DNA of 58,899 nucleotides, filler included, from Gonapodya sp. JEL0774 (Eukaryota), in assembly GCA_027604505.1 (NCBI GenBank). It is 3 parts of 3 records of this genome, joined end to end, with 100 filler letters (N's around TTAATTAATTAA, not from the genome) between each part and the next. Parts side by side here need not be neighbours in the genome. Positions count along the whole stretch, not along the records: positions 39,387 to 58,899 come from JADIIX010000253.1; 2 more parts are not named here. One strand, given 5' to 3'. This document shows positions 24,184 to 58,899 of this stretch, piece after piece. The notes under the pieces were generated by a model that saw only the letters and a list, made by a program, of their open reading frames with translations, was not told the DNA's origin and searched no databases. The position numbers were made by a program, and so were the translations under genes. The stretch's first letter is position 1, and every line of letters begins with the position of its first letter.

Positions 24184-24397
24184 TCACCTCCACACTTCGG
24201 TTGTCACGGTTGAATCACCACATCGGCGGCACCTGGCGTTCCGCCACATTATACCGTTATGTTTCTTGTGTCCGATATTAGACATGTATGAATTTGTGTT
24301 CGCTGGAGTGGACTGTGCTGTGATAAATGTATGTACTGCGGCTGCCTGCATGCACGATCAAAGATCGCCAGCGGAAATTTCCATATTCTAGCCCCAC

Positions 24398-29628: not shown

Positions 29629-29713
29629 TGTACAATATGGTGTTTCAAAATTGGTGTTTCAAAGAGCGATCGCGATCGGCTCTATCACCGGCAATAATAC
29701 CCACAATCCGACA

Positions 29714-35819: not shown

Positions 35820-37259
35820 TCAATAACGACTTCCAACAACGATTTGCTTCCCACATGATTTGGCTCTTTCCACCAATCCTCCCAAAAACCAGCCAACCCA
35901 TTCTGCACCTTTCGATTCCGAAACGCTTCGAGCCCCCGACAGCCATCCTTCTCGCAAGACTAGCTCAACTACATCTCCTGTAAACCGCAATCTTTGCCCT
36001 GGAACGTCTTGGACGAAAGCACCCCAGGAAGAATGGGCGATTGGGGCGTCGGTCGGGGAGAGGGGCTTCACCGGGCTGGGAAATGCAAGATCGAACACAA
36101 TCTCTTGAACGTTTGGAAAATAGACTTTGACTGCTCGCGCAAATGCTACCAGCAAGGCTGTATTCGACATGTCGTTCCGGTGCATTCGAGGTGCGACCCT
36201 GACGTGAAGGGTTGTGACAGAGGGCTGGGACCAACTCTTGGTCAAAGCATTTGCTTCGAGACCTCGAGTGAGATCCGCTGGTGCGATGTAGGCTAAATCG
36301 GGCCAAAGGTGATTCGAATCGTCAAAGAGCATGAGGTGCCCAAGTTCTGTGAGGTTGGGAAAGGCAGAGAGGAGATTTGAGAGGTAGATAGGAAAGAATG
36401 ACAGGGGCACCGTGAAGTTGAAGCCGAGTGTAAAGAAGCTTTCCAAGTTGTATGAGTTTGAATAGGAACTTTTCGTAGTGACGGCTTGGAGAAAGGCGGT
36501 GTTGTCGCGCTCAGTATACGATTCGATACGGAGAGTGTGCATATTGGGGAATACAGTAAAAGGGTCGGCAAAAACGGTACTGGAGCGCGACACTGCATTC
36601 GGGATCCGCTGGATGGAAACCTCCTGGACCGATGGCGCGGGAAGGACATTGCCTCGGATCCACGCCAGCAGCACCTCCTCCGATATCGAAATGGAATTGA
36701 GAGCGAATCGCTGAGAGAACTGCGCGGCAAAGTCCAACAAAGGCGTCCCACCGCGTCCTCGAGACAGGGAAGGGTTGTCCACCGACATGACATCCACACA
36801 GATCGGGACGGGGATCAGCCCACGCCGGATTGGCCGAATGCGAGGTGCAGACCGAATCGCAGCGTCCGTCACCACAGAGGCGAGTTCTGTGAATATGGGC
36901 GTTGTGTGGAGCAAATGGGCGGGCACGAACAGGGAGATTTTGGTGACAGTGACGGCGATCGCGCTGGGAGCGGTGATTGCTCTGTCTCCCCCCAGTTTGC
37001 AACCAACCGGCTTGAACACCTTGAAGAGCTTCCCCACCACAGCCTTTATCGGTAGTGCTTCGTGCATGAGATCGCTGACCGCTAGTGAGACCTCCACCGG
37101 CAGTTTTCCGTCGCGATCGAACGCGGTTCGAGTGATATGTCCCCATCGGCGGCATGTGACCGCGACGGCGGAGAAAAAGTCCAATGGGGGCACCTGGAGG
37201 AAGATTTGAAGGAGAATTTCGGTCGGGAGCGTGGATATGGGGGACGTATCGAGGGTCAT
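35820..37259 (-). CDS. F-box protein with LRR-like C-terminus, intronless
   Basis: ISTLPTEILLQIFLQVP..FF....TCRRWGHI, followed by the family motif FD.DGKL; FPNM/FPNL/FPNV repeats. Confidence 0.85.
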   Translation of the reverse strand: MTLDTSPISTLPTEILLQIFLQVPPLDFFSAVAVTCRRWGHITRTAFDRDGKLPVEVSLAVSDLMHEALPIKAVVGKLFKVFKPVGCKLGGDRAITAPSAIAVTVTKISLFVPAHLLHTTPIFTELASVVTDAAIRSAPRIRPIRRGLIPVPICVDVMSVDNPSLSRGRGGTPLLDFAAQFSQRFALNSISISEEVLLAWIRGNVLPAPSVQEVSIQRIPNAVSRSSTVFADPFTVFPNMHTLRIESYTERDNTAFLQAVTTKSSYSNSYNLESFFTLGFNFTVPLSFFPIYLSNLLSAFPNLTELGHLMLFDDSNHLWPDLAYIAPADLTRGLEANALTKSWSQPSVTTLHVRVAPRMHRNDMSNTALLVAFARAVKVYFPNVQEIVFDLAFPSPVKPLSPTDAPIAHSSWGAFVQDVPGQRLRFTGDVVELVLREGWLSGARSVSESKGAEWVGWFLGGLVERAKSCGKQIVVGSRY

Positions 37260-37678
37260 TTCCTGTAATTCTGAGAGTACGTGCTGGCCGTGACCGTTGC
37301 CCAAGTCTCTCCTTGATCGGCGAGCTCGATGAGAGCAACTTCTCAACCTGAATACAAAAACAACTGATTTGCACACTTACGGCTTGCCAGATGAGCTTGG
37401 CCGGCGAGCAGACAAGGTTTTATATCCACATCATATGTGGATAAAATTGGGCGTAGGTAAACCTCTGGAATTCAAGATACTTCGAGGGCTGAACAATAGT
37501 AGACTAGCTTAATTTATGGTGAATCAGGTCATTGGACTAATATTATTGTGGGCTCGTGACTTGGATCGCATGACTGTCCTCGTGCTGATCCGATCAATGT
37601 ACATTAAGTGAACATCTTTCATTCCCCCGAATTGAATACTTCTCGAGCCGCCCTTATTCACCGGCCATCGAGTGCCAA

Positions 37679-39286: not shown

Positions 39287-39386
39287 NNNNNNNNNNNNNN
39301 NNNNNNNNNNNNNNNNNNNNNNNNNNNNNNTTAATTAATTAANNNNNNNNNNNNNNNNNNNNNNNNNNNNNNNNNNNNNNNNNNNN
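39287..39386. other. Assembly gap with artificial TTAATTAATTAA linker
   Basis: N-runs plus the same 12-mer. The genes on both sides are truncated. Confidence 0.95.
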
Positions 39387-40549
39387 CCTTTGAAGTTCTT
39401 TGGAAGAACTGGACCGTTGACTGCTCATATCGGAGCAAAAGGAGAGTCTGGGCATTCCTATCCGAGGAGACCATTGCTGCCGAGGCTCGACAGAGAATTC
39501 GGGTACGCCATGTGGTGCTATCAAGGGATCTTTCACAAGTACTTGGTGATGAAGAACTTGTGGCAGACATTATTCGGGTGCTGGTACAAGTTCGGGACAA
39601 TGTGATTTCTCTGGAGTGGTGGTGCTCGTCAAACGATTCACTCTTCTACGGCGGGCTCTGTGCCTTTTTGCCTGCAGCCTCCAAGTTGAGGCGTCTTGCC
39701 TTCATGGGTTGGGTACCTGGCATTGAGTGGTTGACGCGTCTCCTGCCTCTCTGCACTGGACTGAAGGAACTCACCTTCAAAGTAAGGAGTGCAGAACAAA
39801 GGGTCACCCTACTTTCTGTGCTGCCGCAGTCGTTGGAGCGTTTGGAGTGCGACTGGTCCGGACTCGGCAATATCGACCAAATCACGCGGTATCAGGCCCT
39901 TCGCAGCGTCACCATCGACGGCATTCCAGAAAGTCTGGTTAGTCTGGAGGCCCTTCCCCATCTTTCAGAACTCAAGGTGAACTATTCAGAAGCCAGTTGG
40001 AGCACTGTGACGCTTGTTTTATCCGGCATCGGACATAGTTTGAAGCTTCTAAGAGTGTGTGGACAGTTGGGCCATGCAGGGGACTACCTTCCTGTGCAGG
40101 TGGTTGAGGACATCATATCATGGTGCGGGAACCTGGAAGCTTTGGCGCTATGCTCATTTGACAAGTGCTCTTTGGACGTAGTATGCCGTGTCATCTTGGC
40201 CTTTGGGCATATGAAAACTTTGAGCTTGCCGTACACACGTGTTGTGCCTGACCAAGCCCAGATGGCTGCACTCGAACCACAGGTCCGAGAACGGTTACAG
40301 CATATGGACCTCCTATTCGCATGGAGTGGAAACTCTCCACCCTCTGTTTCGAAAGAATTTGAGGTTGCTTCGACCACCCAGACTTTGTGGGGCGTCAGAC
40401 CGCTTCGAGATGACGAAAGGATCGAATGGTCACCTCGTACGCGGAAGTTCATCCGAGCTTCGTATTTGTCGCATTGGGTTTATAGATGGACATCTCATAT
40501 AAGTTGGGTTAGGTATTACAAACCAGAAAGACATGGCCCCTGCTGTTAA
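39387..40549 (+). CDS. F-box/RNI-like LRR protein, 5' end lost in the gap
   Basis: Frame is open from the gap (FEVLWKNW..). LRRs such as LRRLAF, LKELTF, LERLEC, CGNLEALAL. Paralog of 41042-42370. Confidence 0.8.
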
Positions 40550-41041
40550 TGTATGAGGCACATGCACTTTGACTTGGAGTAGTCCTGTCACCAAACCATG
40601 ACAAGCTCTTGTGAGTTGAATGACCCCTGAACGCCCTTCCCCCCCCCCCCGGCCCCCGCGTCAGATTTGAACACCAATAGTAAAGCAAACCTTCTTTGGC
40701 TGATTGATGCAGACCCGGCCAGTAAGCCACCAAAACCATAGCACATCTATAATAAGACTGTTGGGTGTGTCACCGTTTGGCCCTTTGTGCACTGAGTGTC
40801 TTGCAAGAAAGACTGGCCGATAATCATGTACAGTGCGGATGCATTACTTTGAACCATTGTAGTCACCGTGAACACCACGTATGTGCTTTCCTTGCTCACA
40901 AGCCTGCGGTCACCTTTCGCCCGACACTGATTTTCAACTCGTGTTTCCACCGCGCTGGCATCGAACAGCACACGACCTAATAGTACGTCTTGGCCTTTGT
41001 GTCGCAGAGCACCATATTTCTGCCACAATTCCTTCCCAGCC

Positions 41042-42370
41042 ATGCATCTTGCACTGTCTGAGCCATGGCTCCTTGAAAGGGTTATGATATTCTTGGGCAA
41101 TGGGGATCGGGCGGCCTGTATGAGTGTGAGGTGAGCTCTTTCAATCAGTTACTATCAAGGGGCTCGGTTTTTGGTACCGATTGATTCTGACCGAGTCCGT
41201 CTCTATGCTTGGCCACATTCTTCCTGAAGCAAAGGGTGGAAATCAATCGCCTTTGAAGTTCTTTGGAGGACTTGGACGTTTGATGAGTCCCCTGCAAGTG
41301 TGAAGCGAGTCAATGCGTACAACACACCCCCCTTGGACGGACAAACGAGGCAGAAGGTGCAACCACGTCATGTTGTTGTGCGTTATGCGGTCAGCGGGTT
41401 TAGGGAAGACGATTTCATCATGGTGGATATCCTGCTGGTGCTTCACCATATTGCCGAGTATGTCATCTCTCTGGAATGGGACTCCTCAAACACCAAGTTC
41501 ACGGTTGGAGGGTGCACTGTCTTTCTGAGTCATGCAGCTCATCTGAGACGGCTTGTGTTTGGCAGCTGTAGTGATGCTGCAAACATTTGGTTGTCTCACT
41601 TACTTCGAGCAAGCACCAATCTGGAGGTGCTGAGCTTTCAGGCCGTTTCGCTAGAGGGCCCAAAAGTGACGCTTCCTGCGGGCTTAGGACGGTCTTTAAC
41701 GACACTGGATTGCAACTTTGATGCGGTGGCTGACTTGAGTGCAATCACTGGGTACCAGGCGCTTAGGGAGTTCAATGCCCTTGGTCTGCCTGCATCAAGC
41801 TTCGATATCCTGAAACACCTCCCACACCTCTCAGTACTCAGCCTCAGTTACTCGGAACGTCCTTGGGATGCAGTGACAAGTGTTCTGACCAGTATTGGTG
41901 GACGTCTGGATTATTTGAGAGTTTCTGCAGAATGTGATTACTTTGTGGATATTGAGACGCTCCCTAACCAAGTGGTAGAGGCTATAGTACGGCACTGTGG
42001 CAATCTCAAAGGTCTGGAGCTGAACTGCTTTGGCACCTGCACTTGTGCTGGTGTATATGGTGTCATCTCGGCATTGCCGAAGTTGAAAGCTTTGGGCTTA
42101 GTGGCGAGTTACGTAGTACCCGACAAAGACTGGAAGAGCAGACTGGATTCATATGTCGCTGATAGGGTTAGGGGGCTGTCTCTGTTTTTTGAGTGGGGGT
42201 TAGTGCAAGATGTAGCCATGGCTGAGGACCAACCTGGAACTTTGATAGGTGGCTACACTCGCGGCACCTGGGACGCCAACACACCCCTTGGTGGATGTCT
42301 GCCTCTTCAACGTAACGAGTACCCAAAGTGGTTAGACAAAGCACGGTGGCTGTCCGGGACTTGCTTTTGA
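41042..42370 (+). CDS. F-box/RNI-like LRR protein (2 exons)
   Basis: MHLALSEPWLLERVMIFLGNGDRAACMSV | intron from 41131 | SKGWKSIAFEVLW forms an F-box. LRRs follow (LRRLVF, LEVLSF, CGNLKGLEL, LPKLKAL). Confidence 0.82.
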
Positions 42371-43251
42371 AGTGAACGACGAGGCATGATGCATATTCTG
42401 TACTGTTTATTGTGTTCCATTTGGCTTTGTATAATGCACTTGAATCAAGAAGGTCCTCGATCGTTCATTAAGGGTCCACGAGGGTGTGCACTACAGATGT
42501 ATGTAAACAATGAAAAATGATGACATGGGGCTATCTCTGCATCCCGAAGAGTGAATGTGTTCAGTCAGCATAAACCTTGTTCTCTCAGGTTGAAACCTTT
42601 GTGTCTCCTCTTGTGACCCTTGGTACGACATGTACTCGTTTGATGTGAGCCGCGTCCCAAATCATCATCACCAATGTTTGTATCCGGTACTATGCAAGGG
42701 TTGATAAGCTGTTTAACTTGCATCTGGCACGGAGCGAGGGTGAACCAGAGAGTGGGAGGCACTCGAAAGGGACTTGGAGGATTATATTAAAGAAACCTCA
42801 AACGACGGAGGTCCCTGGCTGCAAGAATGAGCGTTTTCTAAAGGGCGGGCGGTTTTGCTCTAGTTATAAAAATGCGTGACTTGATTTATTTTTTGGCTCA
42901 TCTGAACGCATCTATAATAAGTGTAATACCTTTTTGTCCCGAATAGGTTCCTCAGTCGGCATTCGGCAGGTTGGAGGCAATGCTCAGCCCTTATCGGCCA
43001 TCGTCTCCCACAACTGGTTGTCTTTACTTGTTTTTTTTGAGGCTGAAGTAAGGGTTCTGACGGACAGCATCGTAGGTCATCATAGAAACCCTTTCCAAAC
43101 GAAGCGGCACCCTCTGACGAGGGATTGTTGCCACCCACATACCATCAGTTGGCAGTACTTTCTCCTATCCTCGATCGGTTGGGAGATAGGGCAAAAACCA
43201 CCAACCAGACGTGTCTTGCTCAAAGTCTGCAGCTCCATATTGTGATTTTCA

Positions 43252-46200
43252 ATGTCCTCCTCATTCACCCTGAATGGTGAGCTTGGGTGTTGGTCCTTTG
43301 AGTCATGACCTTTTTATATTGGAAGACCACATATTTGACTGTTTTATGGTCACTCTGCTAGAAGATGAATCTTCAATGCCATTGGAGGGTCCCCCTGACA
43401 GTGCTGTCCTCCCTGATCCCCTTGATGGCACATCAATTTATATCGAGATGGATGCAGGTACAGATGATGATCTGGTGCAGGTCCCTGATGCCAGTCATGA
43501 CGACATTGGTGACGGAGGACTTCAATATGAAGGTGGTGACACAAGCTCTGATGACGAGACAGGTGAAGTTTTCTGCCTACCTGTCCGACCTCATGGAGCC
43601 CCAGAGACTCAACTCCCTTTATACATACATATATATATATATATTCTCCCTGCCTGAAAAATTGATCCACACACACAGAAGTCATCCTGGCCGAGGCCGT
43701 GTCCGAGTTTGTGTGCACAGAACCAGTTTGTGCAACACTGACCGGACTTCGCAAGATCTTTGGAACTGCTCAGAAGCTCAAAGACCACAAGAAACAACGC
43801 CACGGAACCACGACGTTCGAAATTCCAAACCTCGAAAGTGGTGGCGCCTCTACTCTTTTCCGAATATTTCCCGATCAAACGGGAATGTACAACTGCCCTT
43901 ACCGTGAAAGAGGTTGTAAGAAGCAGTTTACATACACAACAACCGTCTGTCGTCATGCGCAAGGCTGTCCACACTCCCAGAAGGCCTCAACCTCTGCAGA
44001 TCCCCTGATGGACTACACGGTAGGAGATGCGGATGATTTGAGCGGGTTCCATGTGCCGGTAACAGCAAAGGACCTGTCTCTGTACGAGGGTTTTGGTTCG
44101 TATAACGCTGGAGTCTTTTGGGTTAGAATGCCCATGGCTGTGCATGGGAGCTGACAGACAACTTCTCATTTTGCCTGTTCCTACTCGTAGGAGATCTGAA
44201 CTTGCTTGACGCTGGGCTTGTCATTGACAAAGAACTGGGAGCGGTACTCTGTCTGCGATGTCGATGCTACCAGACTCTCCATGTGACCGAGTCTGGAGAC
44301 AAGCCTGGTCCTCTGAATACGGAGGTTGCGCAGCACTTGCTCTCCTCGATCAAGCACAAAGGTTACGGTCGGGTGAAAGTAGCTGAAGTGGTGGCTGCTA
44401 TTCATACCTTGACACAGAAGTGCGGTATCCTGCTCCACACTGCTCCGTGGCCTGCAAAGCTTCAACAGGAACAGGGTCTCCAAGCCACTTCCGGACGCAT
44501 TTCTGAGGCCCTGGTCTTGCGCAGCTCACTTCCACGTGAGCGACGTGCAGTGCCCCTTTCTCCTCTCCCACATATCATGATTCACCTAGGTTACGAGTGC
44601 CGACTGTGCTCCATCTTCACTACAATCAGCAAGAAACGCATGGAACAGCATCACTCCGCTAATTCAAATATCTCGTGTATCAACCTTGGCCTGAAAGTGG
44701 AGGGTACTGTGCCGTATCGAAGCAATGTGTGGCTTCAGAACGTGCGTTCGCGTGTGAAGGATAGGGTGTACGTACCTGTGCAGATCCCAGGACGAGTTGT
44801 CCCGGACCTGGACATGGACCTGAAAGAGACTCCAGAGATTCCAGAGTCGGCTGCTCCAGGAATCACCCTTGAGGAACTGGGTGACCATTTCCGATCAGTG
44901 AAAGGTCGACGGGTTCTGGAGGATATTCTGCAGGGGTTCGGCGATCAAGCCACCCGACACACTGGCACGATGTCATTGAGTGACATTGATCCAAAGCAGC
45001 AGGACTACTACGTTCGAGAACTTCACCTTGTACACTTTCTAGAGGCACAAGAGCTGAGCGGTGGGGATAGTAAGGAGGCCAAGACTCTGAGGATGAGTCA
45101 ACTGCATGGATTGGTGCAGCTGGTGAACACCGGGCCTTCTACAATGGAGGCATTTGTAGAGTTTATGACCTCATGCTTGGTAGGAGGGTCGGGTGAAGGT
45201 GACGGGCCGGTTCATCTCAAGTCAGATCAGCAAGAGAGGGTGGAAAGGGCGTGGGCAGACGTGCAGATACTGCACTCAGGCGGTTCCCCTTTCTACAGAC
45301 ACTTTTATCTTCCATCCAACACCGACATGAGGTCGGCGAGCGTCAACAACCCGAGGTTGCTTGACCTGTTCAAAGGGAGGGAAGACTGGCACACGCATCT
45401 GAAGCCGATCGGGATGAACTCCTTGGCAAAGTACTCCAGGCATGGTACCGGCTACTTGACGCTCTTGGTGGTTTTGCACGCTCTACAAGGTGCACCGGTT
45501 CGGTTTTCACAGTCACTGTGGGCCGATCAAGCCGGGGAGTCCACGGTTAAGTTGAGGGATGCTGTCGGAAGATTAAGAGGGTTGCTTCCCAAGGAGCGTC
45601 CTATAAACACTTCAGAATCCTTTGACAAGGAACTGTGGATTGTGTTCCAGACCATACTGTGGGAGACTGCCTCGTCCAAGTTGGTGCAATTGGACAACCT
45701 GTGTGACAATCTGCACCCTTTCGTCTTGTTCACGCTGCTGTCGTTCATGAAATCATCTGATGGTGTGAGCAAATTAGACCCGTCACCCGTGGTTCAATTC
45801 CAAGCGGCGAAGCACGTGTCCTCCAGGTTGGCTCAGAGTTCACATATGCTCCGGCTGGGCGCGTTCAATAGACTGAGAGATGCAGTCAGGATAGCTGTCG
45901 GAGTACGATCAATGGGGTAAGTAGTTTCTTGCTGCTCTTGGTCTGGTCCTCCCTTTTGGTAAACTAATATTTTACGGACTGACCGGGGTACTTGCGTGAT
46001 CCGCGCACCACCCACCCACCCACCGGCACATATCCTATGACGGCTTGTGGTGCGACAGTACCAGTAATGATCTCTCTGAGCAAGACCAGAAAGTGTTGGA
46101 GCGGGGCACTGGGATCATCTTGGGCTGTGTCAGCGAGGTTCAGGGAGATGCCCTTGACACTCCCTACACGATAGTGAGGCATTATTTGCGAGTGGTCAGT

Positions 46201-49200
46201 CAAGATGCCGCCATGTCAGAGAAAGGGTCTTTCCATGTGGTGAAATTCGAAACCCATGAAGGCGATCATGGGGTGCATCTCTACTGTGGCGACAGGAGTG
46301 ATATCCGAATTACACTTTCGGAAGTCCGAGAGTGTGTGAAGCGACTGGTTCATAGGTTGGACCGTACCTTGCGGAATGATATTCTGAAAAGGCACCGGGT
46401 ACCAGACATTCTCGGTCCTGCTTCGTGGGACAAGTACCGTGACAACTTGGGGAGCTCGAGTTCCACTGGGCGATTCATTGACCAGTTCAGTCAAATGTCG
46501 GATGACAGGCTCCACAAGGATTATTTGAAGCACCTCTACACTTTGGGTTACGTCTCTCGTTTTGAAGTCGGATCCGATGGCAAGCTGTCTTCCACGATCG
46601 ACAGAGACAAGATCTCCTCTCTGTTTGACATTGTGGGGGGATGGGATGAGCTTTGCATCGTGCTGGTGTATCTCACAAGTGGACAGTCGTTCCGGGGGAC
46701 CGAGTTTGCCGGGTTGACCATCCACAACCTTCGGTGGCATGAGGAAGCCAAAGCGTTTGCCCTAGAATTTGTGTATTCGAAAACAGGTGCGCGTCGTATC
46801 TGGAGATACATGCATCCCCTAGTGGCCTACTTTCTCCTGGTACGCGTGTTTGTGGTCCGTCCAGTGCTGGCTCAGCTGGAGCTCCTGGTGTTTCAACACT
46901 TTGCCCACGACCCTCTGCCAGGCCGGGAAACATCTGAGGCAGTGACCAAGATGTCTGAGAGTAGGCTCCTGCATATTTTGACTTGCACCGATGGTTCGGT
47001 CATGAAAGACGTGGCCACTGTTGTGGCAAAAGTGATGGTTTCGGTTGGCCCCATTCCCTTCACTGTTCGGCAGTGGAGGCAGATCTTGCAGACCTTGCTC
47101 AACTCGGTTTTTCAAGACACCACGTATGGTCCAATGGCCTCGTTTGTCAGGAATGCACTCAAATGGGCAGGCGCCGAGGGTGGATTAGCACCTGATGTGG
47201 AGGATGACTGGTCGATGGCGCATGCCTCTTCGACAGGACACAGTCTTGCGACGCACAATCTGGATTATGGTCGTTCTGCACGTGGGCTGACCGTGGGCAA
47301 TATCGGGAGCCTGAACCATGACAAGGATAACGGGCATTTTTTAGTGAGCTTGTGAGTGTGGTTGCGTTGGTGGGTGCAACAGGTTTTCCGTGCCTCTCTC
47401 GTCTGTGCATTCTGGGCTGCCAAATCCAATCCAATCGAATATGCCCTGATAGATGCTTGGTGCAGTGGACTCTCTCTCCATCTTGTTTTGATGTGGTGTT
47501 GCATCAACTAACCCCAGCCCCCTCCCCCCCCCCCCCCCTCCTTTAATGTGCCCCTTCACACGCACCGCCCGCTCTGCCCTTCCCATCCGTTCTCAACCGG
47601 CACCTAGTCTGACAATGTATTTGAGCGAGATCAACCTCCTCGCTCAGGCAGCACCATATCAGGCACTCTTCGCGTGGATGGAAAACTGGGCCTGCAAGAT
47701 ATGCAATATATCCAGCAAACCGGGCGGCAGGACAGTTGGGCGAAGCATGACAACATCGACATCGACATTGCCGCCCATGTCCTTTGATACTCTCGGTACA
47801 CATGCCTCAACCGATGTGAGCAATGTGGTTGTTGTGAATGTGCAGAACCATACGACTCTTCAGGCAGGCTCATCTGGACTCTTGTCATGTGAGAGCCATC
47901 TCCCGATGTTGTGTCCCTATGGCTGTTGCAGCTGTGATTCAAACACAATTGTCCTAATAATATATATTTTTTTTTTCTATGTGCTTATCTTTGGTACTTT
48001 TGATTGGCGCTCACGTGCTCTCGTTCTGTTCTCCTGTACTTTTCACTCGTCGACCACACTTTTCCTCCCATTGTTGTGCATAATAATGGTGGTTTACCCT
48101 TCGGAACTTTGCACAGATCCCGGTCAATTCCACCCACTCCTGGTGAAATCAGCAGCAACCTCTGTGCCAGCGCCCACCGCAGCAACTGCGGACTCTGATC
48201 TGGGCAAGTCTACCTTGTCTCATACTTCCACTACTGTTGGTCATTATCTTGTGTCGGGCGCACGAGGAGGCCTAGGCTGGGATGTGTCGCACGAGCTCAC
48301 GCGTTTGGCCACCTACTTCCCCGGTGTATACCTTAACGAGGACTATGGCTGCGCTATAACACCCGAGTTTGTGCGAAGTCAGCTGACACGAGTTTTGACT
48401 CTGAACCACCGATCCGGTATGGGTTGCACATGGAGGGATCCCATTTTGTCGCTGTCTGCGAGGTTGCTGTTAGGTGGCAAGTCTGACATCATGATTGGTT
48501 CAAGAACAGGAAGTGGCAAGACCTTGGTACCCTTGACAGTTGCAGCAGGTCTGGGCTTCCTCGCTCTGCAGACTGGTAGCGCCAAGGCAAAGACTGTGAT
48601 TGTTTTGACCCCATATGTACTGGTTGGGATGCAGGTCGTGGAATGGTGCCGCAATCTCAAGTGGTCGTACATCTCCATCACTGGAGAGGATGATCGCTCC
48701 CCTGCAACTCAGCAGTGGATGGGTATGTGCCACGACCATCTCCAGGGACCACCTCGGGTTGTGGTGATCAACTGGTCCTCGATCCACCGTTCTGACGTGC
48801 TGGACACCATTCGACAGTGCTCGCGATTTATATTCTGCATTGTCGTGGATGAGGCGCAGGAAGTCAAGTACGCTTGGGGCTACAGGGCCGAAGACATTTC
48901 CTCGGTCACCAAGTTCCGGTCCACCACTGGGACAGAGGATGTTCCAATGGTGCTTATGTCCGGAAGTTTCAGGGTCAATGACCTGCCTTACTATGCCAGA
49001 TCATTTGAAATGGGAGACACAGCTGTACAGGGTGGTGTGTCGAACCGCCGTGTCCCACGCCCTCTGGCGGTTTTTTACGACCATAGGACTTGTATCCGAC
49101 ATGATGTGGAGCTTTCCATACACAGAGTGCCTTGTGATCTTACTGGCTGCAACACCAAATTGGAGAGGGAGAGTGAGGTCCAACGCGTGGTCATTGGTGA

Positions 49201-51579
49201 AGCAGTACAACTACTGTTGAACAGGCACCGCAGTGAGAGGAGCCGACCTGATCCAGGGCTCTCCTTGATCTTGGTACCCAAGATATCACTCTGTAAGATT
49301 GTCCGTGAACAACTCGTGTCTGGGGCAGCCGAGACAAAGCGTCCTCTCCGGTTGGACGAGGTGGCCGTAATGCACTCCGACATTCCGGAGCGAGAGACCC
49401 GAGAGTTGCTAATGCGCATAGAGCGAGGAGAGGTTCTGTTCTTGGTTGGTACAACACGTGTTCGGACTGGCTTTAATTTTGCTGGTAAACCGGTCCGGAC
49501 CATCATCAGTGTGGGTGGGTTGGACACATTAGATGGTGTGACGCAACTGGCTGGACGTGGGGGCAGAGATGGCTATGGGTGTCGCCTTGTGTTTGTTGTG
49601 GACAACGGCCTTGAGTCCATGTCCTCTTGGAGCTACCGTGCTGCGACTACGGGAGTCACGGGTACTTCTGCGGACCCGCCGCCTTCATCGTTCGAGTTTG
49701 GTGATGAGGGTCCGCAAATGAACAATTTCCTTGCGGCAGACAGGTCATGTCTCGCACAGAAGCTGCATCGTTACTTGGGTGGCACGGAAGGGCCAACCTG
49801 CATAGATAACGGTGGTATCCCGATCGAGGATGTCCTGGACCGTTCTACCAGCTCGGCAGGATTAGGGCAGCACCCAGCGTTGCCGCAATACACGCCTGTT
49901 TTGTGTGGCAATTGCAAGCTGACTGCAGGACAAGTCGAAATGCTCGACCTTCCACGTGCTCTGGTGGAAGAGGATCAGGTGGCTGCATTACATAGTGCCA
50001 TGCCCGTCAGTTCCTTGACCGAATCTGAAGAGCCCAACTTAGGTGACGAAACGGTGGAGACGATCGAAACGATCGACACCGTGTTCTCTCAGGAGGAGGC
50101 CCATCTCTCTTTGAGCACATCCCGCGGCGATGATCAGCCGTCTCTGTTGGGTGGTGGTGTACGTGCTGACAGGAGTGTGTCAGAGGTCGCTTTCTCGCAG
50201 CACGACCACAACTCTAGCTGTGGTGGCACATCTAGTCAAGACACTTTGAACAATACTTCCAGCGGCTCAGGCATCGAAACACTACCTGTGAAAGTGGGGA
50301 GTCAACCTTTGGGCGGTGCAGGTGATCCAATACCCCTTCATGCTGGTTTATTGTCAACACATGCTTGCCCGTCCTTGGAGGATGTCGATGCTTTACCTTG
50401 GCCATCGTTGTCGTTTGGGGTTCGGCCTCCTCATGGGCGGGCAAGGGCTCGGTCCTTGGATCAGGGTTCAGTCTCTGGAACGGATCATGATGGCATTCAA
50501 CCGCAACCGAAACGGCCTAGGTTTGAAACGGCCTAGGTTTGAAACGGCCGTGCCAACCAAGGATCAAGGTTTTGCCCGAAAGCTCACGAGCGCGTATCCT
50601 GAGAGGAGGCCACAACCAGGTGCAGTATCAGCCGTGCAACGACAGCAGGGGCACTTTGAACGTCCACTCTCTGTTTCTGCACAGTTGTCAAACATGGTTG
50701 TGAGTATGCAGGCACATCTTGTCTTTTGGGGTCTGCGGTTGTGGACTCAACCTCATGATTTTCGTCCCACCCACCTTCCGGTAGTCCAACCACAAATCCA
50801 TGCTTGGAGATGGGCCTTCTGGCATCTTGACAGGTGTTGCTCATCAGTTGTCGGGACACCATTTCCAACCTCCGGCCCAAAACCTGTTGGCTGTTGTAGG
50901 TGCTTGGAAGAACGACTATCAAGCGATCGGGGCCCAAAAGGAACAAAGACTGCAAGGTTTACTTGTCGAGGTCGTGTCTCGGCTTCAAGGTCGTGGTCCT
51001 TACTGCCCGGTGTGCTTACTGTGGTATGGTGAGGAAACTCAGCTTCACATTCATCGAGGGGATACGTGTGATCTCCGAAAAAGAAATTGCCTCTTGTGTT
51101 TGGGTGCTCACAGCGTGGATGCATGCCACGAATTTGGACCCGCTCGGAAAAGAGAGTGGGTGACAGGCAGCTGTTGGACTTGCAGCCTACCGCAAAAGGG
51201 AGCCGGAGAGCAGCCCTTTCATCACATGCCTAAGTTACAGGGGTCGAATAAGATGCCGTGTACTGCGAGCAACATGGGTCAAGCAGCCCCCCAGGTCGTA
51301 AGCACTATGGTGTGGACAGCGTGCAGTTTCAGTGGGCGTCGCGAAGGCTGTGACGCGGTGCGAACTTTTTACCGTAATCTTTTCATTGGGCACCAGCTCC
51401 TGACGACGGACCAGTTCGACAGTATGTTTGTCGACACTGTGGCGCAAAGGGTCATTTTCCGCAAATGGATGGAGCGCCCCTTAGCTCACGGTTCGAAACT
51501 GATGAACATGGTCGTTCTGTTTGCAATCACACTCACGAGTCCATACAATGGAGGTCTGAAACCCTATTGTGTAGGGTGA
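43252..51579 (+). CDS. Large multi-exon C2H2 + DUF3505-like + tyrosine-recombinase-like + RecQ-like SF2 helicase + Zn-knuckle protein (telomere-linked helicase type); frame broken at ~50525
   Basis: Phase-compatible GT..AG introns (approx. 43277-43361, 43563-43678, 44096-44190, 45917-46058, 47344-47647, 47889-48116, 50700-50784) join the ORFs. Motifs: VLCLRC..GYECRLC..H (DUF3505-like); GQSFRGTE, YSKT, RQWRQ, GHS..Y; RTGSGKT, VVDEAQ, QLAGRGGRDG, C...L.RYL..C..CGNC; terminal CPVC/CLLC..H...C/CWTC. Confidence 0.8.
50509..50549 (+). repeat. 16-bp tandem duplication (gaaacggcctaggttt x2 + gaaacggcc)
   Basis: Read directly. Removing one copy restores PKRPRFETAVPTKDQG and links the helicase to the last exon. 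Confidence 0.95.
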
Positions 51580-52250
51580 GGGGTCAATGGTGCTCAATAG
51601 CTAATTTTTTATTTTCTTACATATCCTGAGTGTGTGCGCTTATTACTTTTGTAACACCGTGTTGTTGTCAGTGCTGTCTCCTTCTCCCCCTGTTTCGGAA
51701 CGGGATCACAATCTTTCCACATGATTTCAGGTTCTGTGCTCAGCCTAAAACAATCTCACCTGAATTTAAATTTTCCGTCGGGGCCTGGCGGGCCGATCGC
51801 GCAATCATTGCCGCCATTACTCTCTTTAAGACAACCAGCGCTTGACCACCGTCCTTCTGGCGCTCTCCAAAACAGAACCCACTCTTGGGCTCTATAATTC
51901 TCTCCCGCCCCCCTCTCTTGGAGTATTGGATAGATAAAACTGCTTTGGGTGGGTTTTTGATCAGAAGAAGAGAGGCGACATTCATTTGTTGGTCGATCGG
52001 CACGCTCGACCACGTGTCTGTCCCTTTACTGTTTCCATGTTCCTCTGTTTGTGCATTATCTGCCTTTCTCTGATGGATGTGTTGCAATGCCGTCATCTGG
52101 ATGTCTCTTTCGTCTCGTGGGTTGATCGCTCGCTGATTGCACATTTCATTTTCTGTCCTTCGTACTTCCCTGTCTTGGCCGGACGTTGTTGATGGATTAT
52201 CAAAATATTGCATGCGTGATAAGCAGATCCAGTGAAACCGACGTAGATCA

Positions 52251-54407
52251 ATGACTCTACCACAACTTGGCACAAGAAGGAGCGTGAGTTGCACTTTCAG
52301 TCGCCAACTGAGCACCTGCCCAACTCCTACATCATTGATTGTTGACCGGAAGAACTTGCGTGTTGGTGTTTGCATAAACCCACCTCGCTGTCAACGGGCT
52401 TGTGCGCCCCCCCCCCCCCGGTGTTTTCTTGGTGCATGCTCTCACCTCACCGCAACGGGTTCCTCACCTTTGCATCTTTGTCTCTCTGTATCATCATCGA
52501 TCCATCACACTGCAGTCCAGGTTGCTTCGGAGAGCCGAGCCGGGTTCAGGGCAAGAAGGTGGGCGAAATCAAGCCAATCAAGAGCAAGTAAGTTTTCATG
52601 GACTCACCATGATTCTCTGCATGCACAATGAGCGCATGTTTGATGCAAGAACCACATGTGGTCTCATATTCATTGTTATATTTTTCTTCCTTTCGTTTGT
52701 GTGTGGTAGGCCCCCGAAGTATCGGCAGTACCACCCTCCCCCTCTCGTCCTCCTCAAGTTCCCTCCACACCACCTCCATTGTCTTTTGCGCAAGACCTCA
52801 ATCGGACACCACCCTCAACTGTGCCAAATGTAGTAACAGCTGGGCAAGGGGAACCCATCGTGGTCTACTCCTCTCCTCTGACACAACCATTTGGGATGGA
52901 CGATCCGTGGGACATGCGATCAACACCTCATTCTCAGGTATCTACTGTCTTTGGCGCCGGGAATGCCGGCAGTCCTTCTCCAGCGAGGCAAGGCGTTGTA
53001 GTTTGTGAGTTTGAGTGTTTCTGTTGCCTTACCTTACCTCTTGCTCATTGCACACTCTCTCCTCTCATGACACCATCTCTTTGTGGTTGATCTGCTGCTT
53101 TTTCTGCGCGTTTTGTGATTCCAGTAGGCCCTGGTGCATCCCTTCATAGCGGTGGAACACCTGGACATTACCCAAGTCTCGCAGGCTGGAACTCGAACAG
53201 TTCCCCGCGTTCTCCAGATCCACACTGGATTGGGGATCCACCAAGTCCCAACTTTGCACTTAGACCCCTCCCAAGAGAGCGTCGGGGACAGGCATTGCCC
53301 CCATTTTATATTTCAGGGGATACAGCAGTAGCTGTTGACCCTGCCAGCCTCGAGACTGCCACTACTCTTCAGGCTTACCTTGCTCAAGGTTCGTGTTGTG
53401 CCCCCCCAACCCTGTGTCTTGATAGAGGTCGTTATTTTGTGGATGTGGGACCGTTGTCCGACTTATGTCTTTTTTTGCTTTCCTTTCGGTTCTAAGTTTG
53501 ATTGTTGCATTGCTTGCTTTGGTTCCAGTACGCCGCCCTCGATCTGAATCACCCTCTACTCAGTTGAACAATTCCAATATCAGGGCGTTCGTCGCCTCGT
53601 CGCTGTTTGGAAGCGCATCCGCGCTTGCTTCCTCTTCTCAAACTTCCAGCAGCAGCAGCAGCAGCTCCTCCACATATGATACTGTCGAGGGGGAAGGAAA
53701 GAGGTTCGATTTCAGGTTTCCGTCTGGTGTGCAGGTGAGTGTGGAGATCCATAAAGAATCAATGTCTGGTGTTGACCTGTGTTACCGGGGCGAACCAGAC
53801 TGACAAACCCTTGGTTTCGCCAGGAGCTCTTCCGAAACGGTCTCCGTTACGGGCAACGTGTCGGCATCCTTATAGAACGTATATCTGATCACAGTGTGGA
53901 CCCAATCACGGGCAAGTACACCTATATCCGGGGGGACGGGCTGCCTTTGGTGGTGGGGAACCCCCCCGGTATCTCGTCTTCGCAGGAATCAGATGCTTTG
54001 ACCCATGTACAAGACATGTTGGACCCATCTTGTCCCGCAGGACAAGTGGAATGGGCGATGCAGAAAGACGGCTGGGAGGGGTGGACCGCGATGGTCCAGT
54101 ACATTGGAACAACCAATTTCCAAGGCAACCTGTGAGTAATTAGTCTACTTCCCTTGAGAGGGATTCTGTGGACGTTTTTACTTGCTCCTCTGAATAATCT
54201 CTTGGATTTGCTTTGGCTCTGTTGGTTGGAACCCACATCACTTCTTTGTGGTGGCGCCCACCTACCGCACCTACATATCCCAGAAACACGCCTGTCTACC
54301 GCACATTGAGTACGCACGCAACGGGACACCACCAATACGCCTTGATCTGCATTACTGAGGAGACCAGTAGTGACGAGATTGATGGTGGTGCTGTGACTAC
54401 TTCTTAG
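52251..54407 (+). CDS. Putative multi-exon gene of unknown function (S/P-rich N-terminus, globular-looking C-terminus)
   Basis: Run of short open segments bounded by GTGAGT/GTAAGT donors (~52284, 52587, 53005, 53734, 54132) and YAG acceptors. ..FRFPSGVQ|ELFRNGLRYG.. joins in phase 0. No family recognised. Confidence 0.5.
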
Positions 54408-55130
54408 TCAGGAGGGCGACGAATGGAAAGGTAAGACTCTAGTGCTTCGGCACTCCCCTCGTCAGTTCATGGTCTGCTTGAATTTTTTTTGTTCTCACGT
54501 GTTGCCACTTGATGCTTCATCACAGCCGAGCTCACGATGGATTGTGCTCCATCTCTTTATCTTGTCTGAAGGGGTGGTGGATATCGGCTCTTTGTTGCTC
54601 CCCCCACTCCCCCTCCTAGTTGAATCTGTCAAATTCTGTTGTGTATTTGTGGAGTCATCCACTATCCAAGCTGCTGTCTGCTCTCCTATACTTGTGACTT
54701 AAACCACCCCTTCCTTCCCTTATGGTGTGAACCAGTTCGAGTGTTGTCTGCTGGGAAGGAAAACCCATTTCATTGGCACCTCTCCTGAAAGTTCGTTGTA
54801 GTTTGTAGTGCATTAACAAAGACCTCAATGTTTATTCCAATCAATCAAGTCACAGAAGAATGACAAACCAGCCGTCATGATGAAGGCGCCTGCCACAGAG
54901 GTTGGACTACAGCATGAAGAGGTTGCTCACATAGTACTTTAGAGGGCCGCTTCTCTCAACAAACTCTTGCTGGACTCTCTCTCTACGCTAAGCAGGAATA
55001 ACCCCCTAAGTATATTACAACCAATCTTTGGAGTCATTACACACCATAGCATGTTAGGCCTGCCTGGCACATCGCAAATTGCCCCACTCACTCACTCCTG
55101 TTATATGAATACACCATTTACAACTCCAAC

Positions 55131-56102
55131 CTACTTCCACACAAACTGCCTGGCCAGCCTTTTCGGGATCTGGGGGTCTGTTTGGGAAGGATTCGAGCGT
55201 GGTGCTTGCCAAACAAAGGTGGTGTCGGCCCAGAGTCCCTCGTAGTCTTTGTCCTGGCTCTCGAGGTAGGCGTGCAAACGTAGATTGAGCGGTGCTGTAT
55301 CTGGCAACCTGGCACCTGCGTGGACTATGTCTCTGAACAAGAAAGCATCACCAGGACGCATCTTCAGGACCCTTGGGGTGAATGTGGTGCTGTGAATGTC
55401 TGGGTCGGTGCACACAGTGGGATTGTCAGTGCACCACTCTCTCACGTGCGTAGCTGTGGAGGTACTCATAGTTTCGGCCCAATGAGCCACAAGCCGCTGA
55501 GACCCAGGCCAGACTACAATCTCTGTGAGGCTGTCATATTGGCAGCCAAATTGAGTGGCAATAACGACTGAGAGGGGTATTTTTGACATGTCTGTGTTGG
55601 GGCGACAGTACCACGAATGCGCATCCACAAAGTCCATGTGTCCAAGCTGCTGGTTGGCTCCACGTTTAGACACAAGAACGTATGTGCCCCCAAATCTGTG
55701 TGTCCTTCCAAAGCCAAGGTGGTCCAAAGTCTCCAGAAGCTTGAGAAACGGAGGGCTCACTGCCGAGAATGGTATCTGCATGCGAAGTCCGTCGTCGGCG
55801 TGACTCTCTGACTTGTTTCGACGTCCTACATGCCTCACATCATTATTGAAGATGTTGTATGCCGATTGTAGGTCAGCGAGCATGGGTATTGTCCTCATAG
55901 ATTCGATGGGGATGGCACCGAGAAGAACACAGAAACCGTCATGGGCGATGGCCGCCCGAACTCTCGTAGGTGCGTCCTCATGGCCCCAAACATCGACAAC
56001 TGGACTCTCCGTGTCCCCCGTCATTGTGCGGTAGGCCGATTCTTTGTCCCGTGCAACATGCCCGGTTCCACTTGATGACGAGCCCAGCAATGCGACAGGC
56101 AT
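55131..56102 (-). CDS. 2-oxoglutarate/Fe(II)-dependent dioxygenase, PhyH-like
   Basis: DGFCVL N-terminal strand, Q..HMDF (HxD), VWPGS, RPGDAFLF..IVHAGA (distal His), NLRLH (2OG-binding Arg). Confidence 0.82.
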   Translation of the reverse strand: MPVALLGSSSSGTGHVARDKESAYRTMTGDTESPVVDVWGHEDAPTRVRAAIAHDGFCVLLGAIPIESMRTIPMLADLQSAYNIFNNDVRHVGRRNKSESHADDGLRMQIPFSAVSPPFLKLLETLDHLGFGRTHRFGGTYVLVSKRGANQQLGHMDFVDAHSWYCRPNTDMSKIPLSVVIATQFGCQYDSLTEIVVWPGSQRLVAHWAETMSTSTATHVREWCTDNPTVCTDPDIHSTTFTPRVLKMRPGDAFLFRDIVHAGARLPDTAPLNLRLHAYLESQDKDYEGLWADTTFVWQAPRSNPSQTDPQIPKRLARQFVWK

Positions 56103-56202
56103 GGGAGTTTTATGAGGAGTGTGAGTGGATAGGACAAGTGTGCGGTTTGACGACGGGGTACTTGTCTGGAGAGGTCCGCCTCTGTGTGCGGGATGGAATG
56201 GG

Positions 56203-56272
56203 GAGGTTTGCTGTGGTCAAAAAACCCGGACATAAGGCCTTATGTCCGGGTTTTTTGACCACAGCAAACCTC
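56203..56272. repeat. Perfect 70-bp palindrome with no spacer (35-bp arms, centre AAGG|CCTT)
   Basis: gaggtttgctgtggtcaaaaaacccggacataagg|ccttatgtccgggttttttgaccacagcaaacctc. ORFs on both strands begin with the same MSGFFDHSKP. Confidence 0.98.
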
Positions 56273-56349
56273 AAGACCGGTCATCGTGTCTCCGTGTCTC
56301 CGCCCTCCTAACCTTTTGTTTACCAATCACATTTCGCCATTTTCTCCCC

Positions 56350-58662
56350 ATGTCTGAACCAATTTCTGCTCATACTAGCGCTGAACCTTTAACCAGCGAC
56401 GGTGATGGACGCAGTGCGACCTTGGTCCCCGTGGTCCTTTACCCCAACTCGTTTGAACTGGAAGACGAATCCACGTTACGAGCGTTTGCTCAATGGCACA
56501 TCGGACATCCGACTGAGACACAGTCACTCTCACCCGATTTCTTGGCGAGCCAGGTGGTTGAGGCAGCCACACAGCGACTGGAAATGCTGGAGAGAATGCA
56601 GGAAGCGGCGCGGAGAGCGGACGTTATCAACCGAAACGCCGTTGAGACAGCTGGATTTCTAGCTCTTTATCTGAAAGCTAAGGCAGACAGGGACATGGGA
56701 ACGTTGACGGGATCTGACGATCTTTATCAACGATGGATTCGCGAGTGGAACCATGCTTACCCAGCTTTGAAGGTGTTCCCTCGTGCCGCAGAGTCCAAGT
56801 TCACTAAGCAAATGTTCGAAAACGCAGCCCGCAACTTTTTCTTCCCTCTGGGGACGTCTGACGTGCTTGATAAGCTTGTGTTTCCTGCGGGATCAGAACA
56901 GTCCGCTCAATCTGGTCGTAGGGGTCCACCAGCCACCGCCGAGACAATCGCTTTCAGAACAGTCATCGTCAGGGTTATGGACACTGTCGTGGCATATGCG
57001 TTGTCTGGCGGCACTTTTGGGTCGGGAGGATCTGACAGCTCAGATGGGCACCCTGGTTCAGATGGTGCTGATTGTCCTGAACCATCCAAGACGCTCATGG
57101 GTCGAATACAGATGGCCTTTAAGCTTGCTGCTCAAATCTTATTCGGCCGTGCGCCAGTGTTTGAAGTTTCCCGTCTTCACCGGGTTCTCTTTCAGAGGCC
57201 GAATCGACGACCTGGTGTGGCTGGCAGACTGGCCATGTACGGATTTTTGGAGACCCCTTCGACAGGTGGTTCAGCAGAGTGTGGTAAGTTATACTCTGTT
57301 GGTCTGCGTGTCGGGGTCTTGGCTCAAACCCCTACTTGTGTTGCCCTCCCTCCTTTGCCTAATGTATGTCGGGCAAAGCTCGGGAGGACAGTGGGCAGGC
57401 TCTTCAAGATGGCGTGGAAAACAGAGAAGAAAACTCTTGTCTTGATTCCAACGACGTCAGCCAGGGCTTGGATGAGGAGGACTCAGATGAAGGAGAGAGG
57501 ACAGGGGAATCTTGGTCCCAGATGTACCAAGATGCGTCACTGTTGAAAGTGCGCCTTCGTCCCGGTGGAGGTCAAGTAAAGCGTTCAGCGCTATATGAAG
57601 AAGGAATAGAATTGAATCCCAGCAAGAAGGCTAGGGTTACTAAAGTGAGTCGGTCTCTGTGGTGATGTGTTTGGTAGAGTAGTAGACTAGCGGTGTGCCC
57701 TCCGCCGGCCTCTGGTGGTGTATCTTTGTGTTTTTATTGCGAAGGCTCACTCCACTTTTTCTTCTTCCTTCCTTCTAGACCTCTCCACCTCCTTTCTGTG
57801 ATGGTACTGCCGCCGACTCGCACAACCTACCATCCGAGAAAGGGAAGGAATCGTCTCGCCACGGCCGATCAGCCCAGGACAATTTAGAATCGGAGTCCAT
57901 TGTTTCGAATTTAAGGAAAGAGGCTGATATGCCGGGTATGTGTTATGGTTCGTGACTTGATGGTCATGGTGTCCGTCAGTCAGCAGCAGCTGTCTGTCAT
58001 CAAGATTTGTGTTTTTGTGCTGATGTCGCATTGTGTAGATGATCTAGATTCTGAGTACCAACCAGGACCACGCAGACCCGACCATGCTGCCAAGACTGTT
58101 GCTACCCAGCCGGCAAGCGACTGTATCAACCACTCTCTCGAACCCACTTGTACAGCAGCTGATGGTGGTAGCGAGGCAGGTGGGAGTGGTGTCATCAAGG
58201 ACAGGGTTAGCAAAGCCAATGAGGGTTCCAGTGGGTCAGGAACAGGAGGAGGTGGTGGTTCCGCTGAATCCCACCGCCGTGGCAGAGGGACGTCACGGGC
58301 ACATCAGGGTGGGCGTGGCGGCGGCAGCATAGTATTAGTGAGAGACGATGCCAAACCACGCACTCGGAGTGGGTCCCAGAAACGGGGAGCCAAGAGCACG
58401 GTGAGTGAACCCGTGACCATGAATCTCCTGAGGAGCTGAGCGGATGATGATGTACATATTTGTGTCTGCTTCTTCCCTCCTGACCATCTCCCTTCTCTTT
58501 TTCTATACTCAGAACCGTACTAGCACTCTCCCCGAGGAGTTTACCACCCATCAGGGAACCTATTCTTTGCAACTCCAGACTTTCGGTGACATCTCGCACC
58601 TTAACCGGATCTGGAATCGATTTAGAAGCGAGTATGAGGTGGGCAACCTCGATGAGAAGTAA
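56350..58662 (+). CDS. Putative multi-exon gene of unknown function, divergent from the dioxygenase; may extend past the window
   Basis: About 310 open codons from MSEPISAH, with a helical segment (QRLEMLERMQEAARRAD). Donors at ~57284, 57645 and 58401. Later exons are acidic, Gly-rich or basic. Confidence 0.55.
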
Positions 58663-58899
58663 GTTGTTAAAAGAGTGCTGGTGGGGGCCAGTGTGACCTC
58701 GAGTGTACCCTGGTTCTATAAGTGCGTGTTGAATAAGCACGTAGCTGGTTGAAGCATGCTGACACCCGCACCCACTTTGGTTCAACTCGCTTCCTTCCTC
58801 TCTTAGGCTGAATTTGGCCCATGAGCAATCTGGACACTCTTTGGACTGGTTCTATCTTTGTCTCTTGACCAAGTTCTGCGCTGCCGACCGGGACATTAC

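What the first reader, a model, noticed from the sequence alone, without database searches (positions are those of the whole stretch)
46660..47275. Hidden tyrosine-recombinase active site inside the helicase gene
Residues fall in YR order: Arg in LTSGQSFRGTE (codon 46693), Lys in FVYSKTG (46780), Arg in RQWRQ (47077, at the H-x-x-R position), His in TGHS (47239) and Tyr in LDYG (47266). The His-to-Tyr spacing of 9 matches lambda Int H333/Y342 and Cre W315/Y324. The first His of HxxR is absent, as in topoisomerase IB/protelomerase-type R-K-R-H-Y sites. Automatic annotation would probably label this ORF hypothetical.
Basis: partly seen in the sequence, partly recalled or inferred. Interest (0 to 1): 0.85.

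Follow-up and report, generated by a model that had tools for sequence, protein, structure and literature searches.

The report
Tyrosine recombinase fused to telomere-type helicase
This exon of an aquatic fungus keeps the conserved residues of, and is predicted to fold like, a DNA cut-and-rejoin enzyme (tyrosine recombinase); it is likely part of a 'telomere-linked helicase' gene, so that family's long-unexplained middle domain is likely an enzyme that could help these genes spread.

Summary
All five codons are present and in frame. Their order alone is weak evidence: 286 of 2000 shuffles match a loose pattern. Three tests support it.
(1) In 37 aligned homologs Arg, Lys, Arg and Tyr are invariant; His is H in 26, R in 11.
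(2) A profile alignment pairs all five with XerD R148/K172/R247/H270/Y279, beating 100 of 100 block shuffles.
(3) Ranks 1-22 of 48,161 structures are recombinase/topoisomerase-IB folds, at moderate scores (best Z 8.4).
The ORF is a divergent 'TLH domain' from Gonapodya. Relatives fuse it to a RecQ-like helicase, and 6 of 80 loci end in telomere repeats.
Corrections: the site keeps the recombinase-specific Glu and ranks with Xer/Cre above protelomerase. Fusion here needs an inferred splice. This copy is internal, and a 16-bp duplication frameshifts its 3' end. Catalysis and mobility are untested; no element ends were found.
Ten paper searches showed no report of this link. The scan has noted it before on other DNA (42 findings, at least 17 genomes).

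The parts
43252..45917 (+). 5' exons of the gene (NCBI model: 43252-43275, 43361-43561, 43678-44097, 44193-45917): acidic N-terminus, two C2H2-like motifs, weak OrsD/DUF3505 region, helical region
   Evidence: P0001 mapped to the window; motifs read from the translation
44514..44660 (+). Weak OrsD (PF12013) match with a zinc-finger-like CxxC...H
   Evidence: E 0.0097, 16.8 bits, below the 26.6 cut-off; family N-terminal profile E 0.044
46060..47351 (+). Exon encoding the TLH domain, predicted YR catalytic fold (model residues 13-368, about 46276-47343)
46693..46695 (+). Arg I (aligns with XerD R148)
   Evidence: 37 of 37 (in the search pattern for 34 rows)
46702..46704 (+).
   Evidence: 37 of 37 (in the search pattern for 34 rows); aligned to XerD RVSE
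46780..46782 (+). Lys (aligns with XerD K172)
   Evidence: 37 of 37, independent of the pattern
47068..47070 (+). His-II position, here Arg; unconserved in the family (L9 A7 S6 H4 M3 Q3 R2 N1 T1 K1)
   Evidence: aligned to XerD H244
47077..47079 (+). Arg II (aligns with XerD R247)
   Evidence: 37 of 37
47239..47241 (+). His III (aligns with XerD H270)
   Evidence: H in 26, R in 11 of 37
47266..47268 (+). Predicted nucleophile Tyr (aligns with XerD Y279)
   Evidence: 37 of 37
47352..47607 (+). Inferred intron (GTGAGT donor; acceptor at 47517 or 47607) that would put the YR exon in frame with the helicase
   Evidence: phase check; no RNA data
47889..48116 (+). Inferred in-frame intron
   Evidence: GTGAGA...CACAG, 228 nt
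48464..49573 (+). RecQ-like SF2 helicase core (GSGKT 48509, DEAQ 48848, QLAGRGGRDG 49544)
   Evidence: DEAD E 3.3e-9, Helicase_C E 2e-4; 25% and 23% identity to the helicases of P0002 and P0003
50509..50549 (+). Perfect 16-bp tandem duplication (2.6 copies) that shifts the frame; stop at 50534-50536
50700..50784 (+). Inferred intron, phase 0
50785..51579 (+). Last exon, Cys-rich C-terminal domain (CxxC at 51004, 51088, 51172)
   Evidence: family C-terminal profile E 9.8e-5

Best explanation
The exon encodes a predicted tyrosine-recombinase domain that is likely spliced to the downstream RecQ-like helicase, and this fusion is likely the engine of a self-spreading DNA unit of the telomere-linked-helicase (TLH) family. 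Shown: the residues, their conservation, and single-ORF fusion in relatives. Predicted: the YR fold (about 0.93). Inferred: the Tyr attacks DNA to form a 3'-phosphotyrosine, with Arg/Glu/Lys/Arg/His support, and the strands are rejoined to a partner site (about 0.75). Inferred: the zinc-finger/OrsD part binds the unit's own DNA, the recombinase excises or inserts the unit (probably through a circle, as proposed for Cryptons and Starships), and the helicase unwinds or branch-migrates the intermediate (about 0.5). Many relatives sit at chromosome ends. This Gonapodya copy is internal and, as assembled, loses its last domain to a frameshift.
For: Conservation: K, R, R, Y and E invariant in 37 of 37 rows at 12-26% identity to the query. 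A profile from 34 metagenome loci alone finds the window ORF at E 3.5e-8 among 1271 sequences. Profile-profile vs XerD-like recombinases: score 30.8, P 0.0006; block shuffles 15.5 +/- 1.8, 0 of 100 reach it; all five residues in register. Fold: ranks 1-22 of 48,161 are YR/topo-IB-fold chains, best XerA 4a8e Z 8.4, rmsd 4.1, 162 aligned; first unrelated chain Z 5.1. Fusion: P0002 and P0003 carry domain plus helicase in one ORF. 19 of 117 metagenome ORFs run more than 750 residues past the motif, and their helicase-bearing profile hits both downstream window ORFs. Splice phases fit. TLH identity: 6 of 80 loci end downstream in (TTAGGG)n; TLH papers describe a roughly 250-residue 'TLH domain' of unknown function just before the helicase. 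Element-like behaviour: TLH units occur singly or in arrays flanked by telomere repeats in Fusarium and are dispensable in Magnaporthe. RecQ helicases are known in Academ transposons (PMC3627910).
Against: No element ends: no direct or inverted repeat of 12 nt or more is shared by the two flanks, and no telomere repeats occur in the window. No neighbour gene is shared with 80 homolog loci. Foldseek gave no match at E <= 0.001. Z 8.4 at rmsd about 4 is in the range the tool calls ambiguous for helical proteins. HHalign probability is only 6-29%, and the 34 loci alone give P 0.017. The His/Tyr segment has pLDDT below 50. His II is missing; Arg there, as in this copy, is one of five substitutions inactive in Cre in vivo. 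His III is Arg in 11 of 37. The 34 rows were chosen for an open frame (83 of 117 dropped: 72 too short or interrupted, 11 near-identical), which favours intact copies. The window protein is a long branch. Multi-copy subtelomeric arrays can also spread by host recombination.
Confidence: 0.5

Rival explanations
1. Active YR-fold enzyme serving host telomere upkeep rather than mobility: a topo-IB-like swivel or recombination-intermediate resolvase working with its own RecQ motor, like a one-chain helicase-topoisomerase.
For: His II is absent, as in topo IB; topo IB chains appear at Z 5.3-6.1. S. pombe TLH genes are induced in telomere crisis. No element ends here.
Against: The YR-specific Glu is invariant, and Xer/Cre chains rank higher. 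TLH ends are dispensable in Magnaporthe. This copy is not at a telomere.
Confidence: 0.25
2. Telomere resolvase (protelomerase-like) that turns a palindromic junction into hairpin ends; the perfect 70-bp palindrome at 56203-56272 could be its site.
For: The R-K-R-H-Y set without His II resembles protelomerases (recalled). A perfect 35-bp-arm palindrome lies on the same contig. A 40-bp palindrome follows the coding end in 3 related loci.
Against: TelA ranks 44th (Z 4.4). The TelN profile gives P 0.28 (shallow alignment). The palindrome is 4.6 kb past the gene with no second copy. Only 6 hairpins with arms of 18 bp or more occur in 80 loci (475 kb), 3 of them one subfamily. Linked ends carry ordinary TTAGGG arrays.
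Confidence: 0.08
3. Catalytically dead YR-fold DNA-binding domain, like Ndc10.
For: Ndc10 appears at Z 5.7-5.8. His II is lost, and His III varies.
Against: Tyr, Lys and both Arg are invariant across 12-26% identity. Domesticated inactive YR derivatives typically lose them (PMC13465315).
Confidence: 0.12
4. Not a YR fold: chance motifs plus a common helical arrangement.
For: The loose motif matches 14% of shuffles. No Pfam, NCBIfam, PHROG or PDB-sequence support for a YR (one PHROG integrase hit at E 0.21 in 1 of 37). Foldseek was not significant.
Against: Searches agree on the same family and, for the sequence tests, the same residues. The Atlas feature search listed a PF00589 cluster, at 0.86, a lead only.
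Confidence: 0.05

Closest known systems
[quoted passage not shown]
   Same: Same order: C2H2 motifs, conserved domain just before the helicase, RecQ-like helicase. The window matches a family whose members end in telomere repeats.
   Different: This copy is internal and intron-rich, and sits on a long branch with two unnamed proteins (100/100). The papers read give the TLH domain no function. I had no named TLH sequence to align directly.
Xer/Cre/lambda-Int tyrosine recombinases (PF00589)
   Same: Predicted catalytic fold; Arg I, Glu I, Lys, Arg II, His III and Tyr in register with XerD.
   Different: No His II. About 100 extra residues in the domain (inferred from aligned ranges). Fused to a helicase. 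No Pfam match. Core-binding domain not established (P 0.055).
Fungal YR transposons: Crypton (including Glomhopper/DUF3504) and Starship captains (DUF3435)
   Same: Eukaryotic, divergent YR with a predicted Cre-like fold; candidate circle-based mobility.
   Different: No DUF3504 or DUF3435 match in 37 rows. Captains keep R-K-H-R-Y. 'Helicase' occurs 0 times in both papers. No flanking repeats found here.
Topoisomerase IB and protelomerases (TelA, TelK, TelN, ResT)
   Same: Same superfamily chemistry; no His II.
   Different: Topo IB lacks Glu I, which is invariant here. Lower fold ranks.
Academ DNA transposons with RecQ helicase
   Same: A RecQ helicase carried by a eukaryotic DNA transposon (PMC3627910).
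   Different: Their transposase is not a YR (recalled).

Membership tests
YR/topo IB superfamily | Catalytic-domain fold | tested here: met
   Predicted model (pLDDT 69, pTM 0.74); ranks 1-22 all this fold, best Z 8.4, rmsd 4.1, 162 aligned. Moderate scores; two rows (6z01, 9rd5) assigned from recall.
YR/topo IB superfamily | Conserved Arg, Lys, Arg, His/Trp, Tyr in register | tested here: met
   His III is Arg in 11 of 37
YR/topo IB superfamily | Residues cluster in one pocket | not testable with these tools
   No coordinates returned; residues 299-344 have pLDDT below 50
YR/topo IB superfamily | 3'-phosphotyrosine cleavage and rejoining | not testable with these tools
   needs an assay
Classical YR (Xer/Cre/Int) | Glu/Asp I after Arg I | tested here: met
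   E in 37 of 37; independent only for the window, P0002 and P0003
Classical YR (Xer/Cre/Int) | His II of H-x-x-R | tested here: not met
   H in 4 of 37; Arg in the window. About 87% conserved and not strictly required in YRs
Classical YR (Xer/Cre/Int) | Core-binding domain before the catalytic domain | tested here: inconclusive
   25 columns, P 0.055
Protelomerase | Sequence or fold closeness to TelA/TelK/TelN | tested here: inconclusive
   TelA Z 4.4; TelN profile P 0.28
Protelomerase | Adjacent palindromic resolution site | tested here: inconclusive
   70-bp palindrome 4.6 kb downstream, link unproven
TLH genes | C2H2 motifs, TLH domain and RecQ helicase, in that order | tested here: met
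   one transcript inferred from splice phases
TLH genes | Position next to a telomere | tested here: not met
   7.3 kb with other ORFs follows; no (TTAGGG)2 in the window. Met by 6 of 80 homolog loci. Hence filed as a TLH-family homolog, not a telomere-linked copy.
Crypton / Starship | DUF3504 or DUF3435 recombinase | tested here: not met
   0 of 37 rows match at E <= 1
Mobile element (any) | Defined ends, multiple copies, empty sites | tested here: inconclusive
   No flank repeats; no whole genome held; no reads listed

The most novel reading that the evidence does not exclude
TLH genes are the single-gene engine of an unrecognised class of eukaryotic DNA mobile elements: a tyrosine recombinase fused to a RecQ motor, with a hybrid active site (YR Glu kept, His II lost), reaching from early-diverging Monoblepharidomycetes to telomere-adjacent copies in other fungi.
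Probability: 0.4. Interest if true: 0.88.

Novelty: new variant of a known kind. Interest (0 to 1): 0.72.

Why it matters
The TLH papers read here call the genes' function unknown and the conserved TLH domain unexplained. A predicted nucleophile Tyr and its catalytic set make the question testable with one point mutant in S. pombe or Fusarium. If the unit is mobile, it adds a new kind of YR element beside DIRS, Ngaro, Crypton and Starship (the list) and offers a cause for subtelomere turnover. This copy adds a deep-branching, internal, intron-rich member from an early-diverging fungus with the same residues, which suggests the module is old and not confined to telomeres.

Tried and rejected
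Homolog searches: three word-based searches found only the protein itself or P0003. P0004 is a spurious repeat hit. Viral contigs gave no relative, nor did phage tblastn. Prokaryote genomes gave 3 motif matches: two short MAG contigs with full family members, likely mis-binned fungal DNA, and one motif-only match.
Family and structure libraries: PDB sequence searches gave nothing meaningful. Pfam's nSTAND_NTPase7 hit (E 2e-4, below cut-off, 1 of 37 rows) was rejected as spurious. The 3-sequence model was unusable (pLDDT 37.7). Single-sequence lambda Int comparison was uninformative.
Gene structure: a 39-nt intron model (47344-47382) is out of frame, and no candidate intron skips the 16-bp duplication.
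Context: no sequencing run was listed, and no whole genome is held. Rolling-circle initiation by the YR nick was considered and set aside, because YR chemistry blocks the 3' end (established knowledge).
Literature: ten searches listed no paper linking TLH to a recombinase by title or abstract; (both terms) and one search returned 0 papers. The library lacks most subscription papers. Rehmeyer 2009, Repbase and bioRxiv supplements were not seen.

Full report
Setting. The window is a linker-joined concatenation with N-runs at 19635-19734 and 39287-39386. The finding lies on the piece 39387-58899 (19,513 bp). P0001 is 1221 aa, maps to five exons from 43252 to 47352, and stops before the helicase.

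Observation. The five codons are as stated and in one open frame. The order alone is weak: 286 of 2000 shuffles of the ORF match a loose spacing pattern, and 1 of 2000 a strict one. Pfam, NCBIfam, PHROGs and PDB sequence searches give no recombinase support.

Homologs. An exhaustive phmmer search gave two real relatives, P0002 and P0003 (E 2e-17 and 1e-15), and one spurious repeat protein. Both relatives carry the domain and a DEAD/Helicase_C helicase in one ORF. A degenerate DNA pattern around the first Arg gave 117 metagenome loci; the scan covered 42 of 64 parts. Of these, 45 had enough open frame and 34 remained after removing near-identical rows. A profile of those 34 alone finds the window ORF at E 3.5e-8. 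In the 37-row alignment R152, E155, K181, R280 and Y343 are each 37 of 37, H334 is H in 26 and R in 11, and the His-II column is unconserved. R152 and E155 were in the pattern, so K, Arg II and Tyr are the independent evidence. The selection favours intact copies.

Fold. A 3-row model failed (pLDDT 37.7). The 37-row model reached pLDDT 69.4 and pTM 0.74, with residues 299-344, which hold His and Tyr, below 50. Foldseek found nothing at E <= 0.001, though recombinases fill 9 of its top 10 rows. VIA-align against 48,161 chains ranked 22 YR/topo-IB-fold chains first: XerA Z 8.4 (rmsd 4.1, 162 aligned), Cre 6.8, topo IB up to 6.1, Ndc10 5.8, Flp 5.4. The first unrelated chain scored 5.1 and TelA 4.4 (one search agrees). 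These scores are moderate, and the case rests on one family filling the list. By sequence, HHalign of the family against 73 XerD-like proteins placed the five residues on XerD R148, K172, R247, H270 and Y279. The score was 30.8 (P 0.0006, probability 29%) against 15.5 +/- 1.8 for block shuffles (0 of 100 as high); the reversed and unrelated profiles scored 11-16.

Active-site type. Gibb et al. (PMC2943603, passages) state that Glu I and His II are unique to YRs, that His II is not strictly required, and that Arg at that position inactivates Cre in vivo. This domain keeps Glu I and lacks His II, so it is a hybrid, not simply the topo IB/protelomerase type. The Arg at His II in this copy counts against activity if Cre's geometry applies.

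Gene. The order is C2H2-like motifs, weak OrsD, YR-fold domain, RecQ-like helicase, Cys-rich end. A GTGAGT donor at 47352 with an acceptor at 47517 or 47607, plus introns 47889-48116 and 50700-50784, keep one phase. The window's helicase resembles those of P0002 and P0003 (pairwise E 2e-19 and 6e-14). A perfect 16-bp duplication at 50509-50549 shifts the frame and stops translation before the last domain; no skipping intron was found. No reads were listed to check any of this.

Family identity. Six of 80 loci with full flanks end downstream in (TTAGGG)n and none upstream; most contigs are too short to tell. Two of them in the tree fall in different subclades. The Fusarium preprint (10.1101/2024.02.27.582403; results and discussion read) describes a conserved 250-residue 'TLH domain' before the helicase, of unknown function, in units found singly or in arrays. 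PMC1635262 (passages) finds TLH ends dispensable and has no mention of 'recombinase'. 10.1101/721753 (passages) shows OrsD with these helicases. The window protein groups with P0002 and P0003 (100/100) on long branches, which may be an artefact of long branches meeting. It is internal, with no telomere repeats.

Mechanism. I favour an active YR fused to a RecQ motor that moves or multiplies its own DNA unit (0.5), over a host telomere swivel or resolvase (0.25), a dead DNA-binding domain (0.12), a hairpin-telomere resolvase (0.08) or no YR (0.05). Mobility is the weakest step: there are no flank repeats, no shared neighbours and no genome in which to count copies. Precedents: Crypton and Starship YRs (PMC13465315 and PMC10104507, passages; circular Starship intermediates seen only as a search listing) and RecQ in Academ (PMC3627910, passage). 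PMC4522978 and 10.1101/2025.11.13.688278 were read in passages and add nothing on the link.

Novelty. Ten searches showed no paper stating that the TLH domain is a recombinase; subscription papers, Repbase and bioRxiv supplements were not seen. This scan has 42 earlier findings of the same idea in at least 17 genomes, which are not independent evidence. None came up for this genome or for these sequences. Verdict: observation confirmed; YR fold well supported by prediction and conservation; catalysis likely; mobility plausible but unshown. New variant of a known kind, interest 0.72.

Noticed in passing
window 56203-56272: Perfect 70-bp palindrome (35-bp arms, no loop) between two divergent ORFs; the next best in the window has 9-bp arms, and no second copy of the arms exists.
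   Followed up: partly
window 55134-56102 (-): 323-aa ORF with H-x-D...H...R motifs suggesting a 2-oxoglutarate/Fe(II) dioxygenase (motif recalled); no Pfam, PHROG or PDB hit of note.
   Followed up: partly
window 56350-57546 (+): 398-aa ORF with no Pfam or Atlas match; possible cargo or orphan gene.
   Followed up: partly
L007, L023, L055, about +2580 from the motif: A conserved 40-bp palindrome sits right after the coding end in one subfamily; candidate recombination or termination site.
   Followed up: partly
L073, L074 (and L056): Telomere arrays begin about 510-570 bp after the motif, i.e. within the domain. L056 and L074 share 10.5 kb at 99.8% up to that point, so these look like telomere-capped truncations.
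   Followed up: no
L039, L028/L073: Second, diverged family copies lie a few kb upstream on the same contig, suggesting tandem arrays.
   Followed up: no
alignment A2, column of window codon 47239: One subclade (11 of 37 rows) has Arg instead of His III.
   Followed up: no
L346, L347: Full-length family members on short contigs inside bacterial MAGs, likely mis-binned fungal DNA.
   Followed up: partly
window 19635-19734 and 39287-39386: Artificial N-TTAATTAATTAA-N linkers; the window joins three contigs.
   Followed up: yes
window 24392-25732, 28309-29658, 35820-37376, 39387-42370: Several F-box and LRR-like genes, suggesting an expanded family.
   Followed up: no
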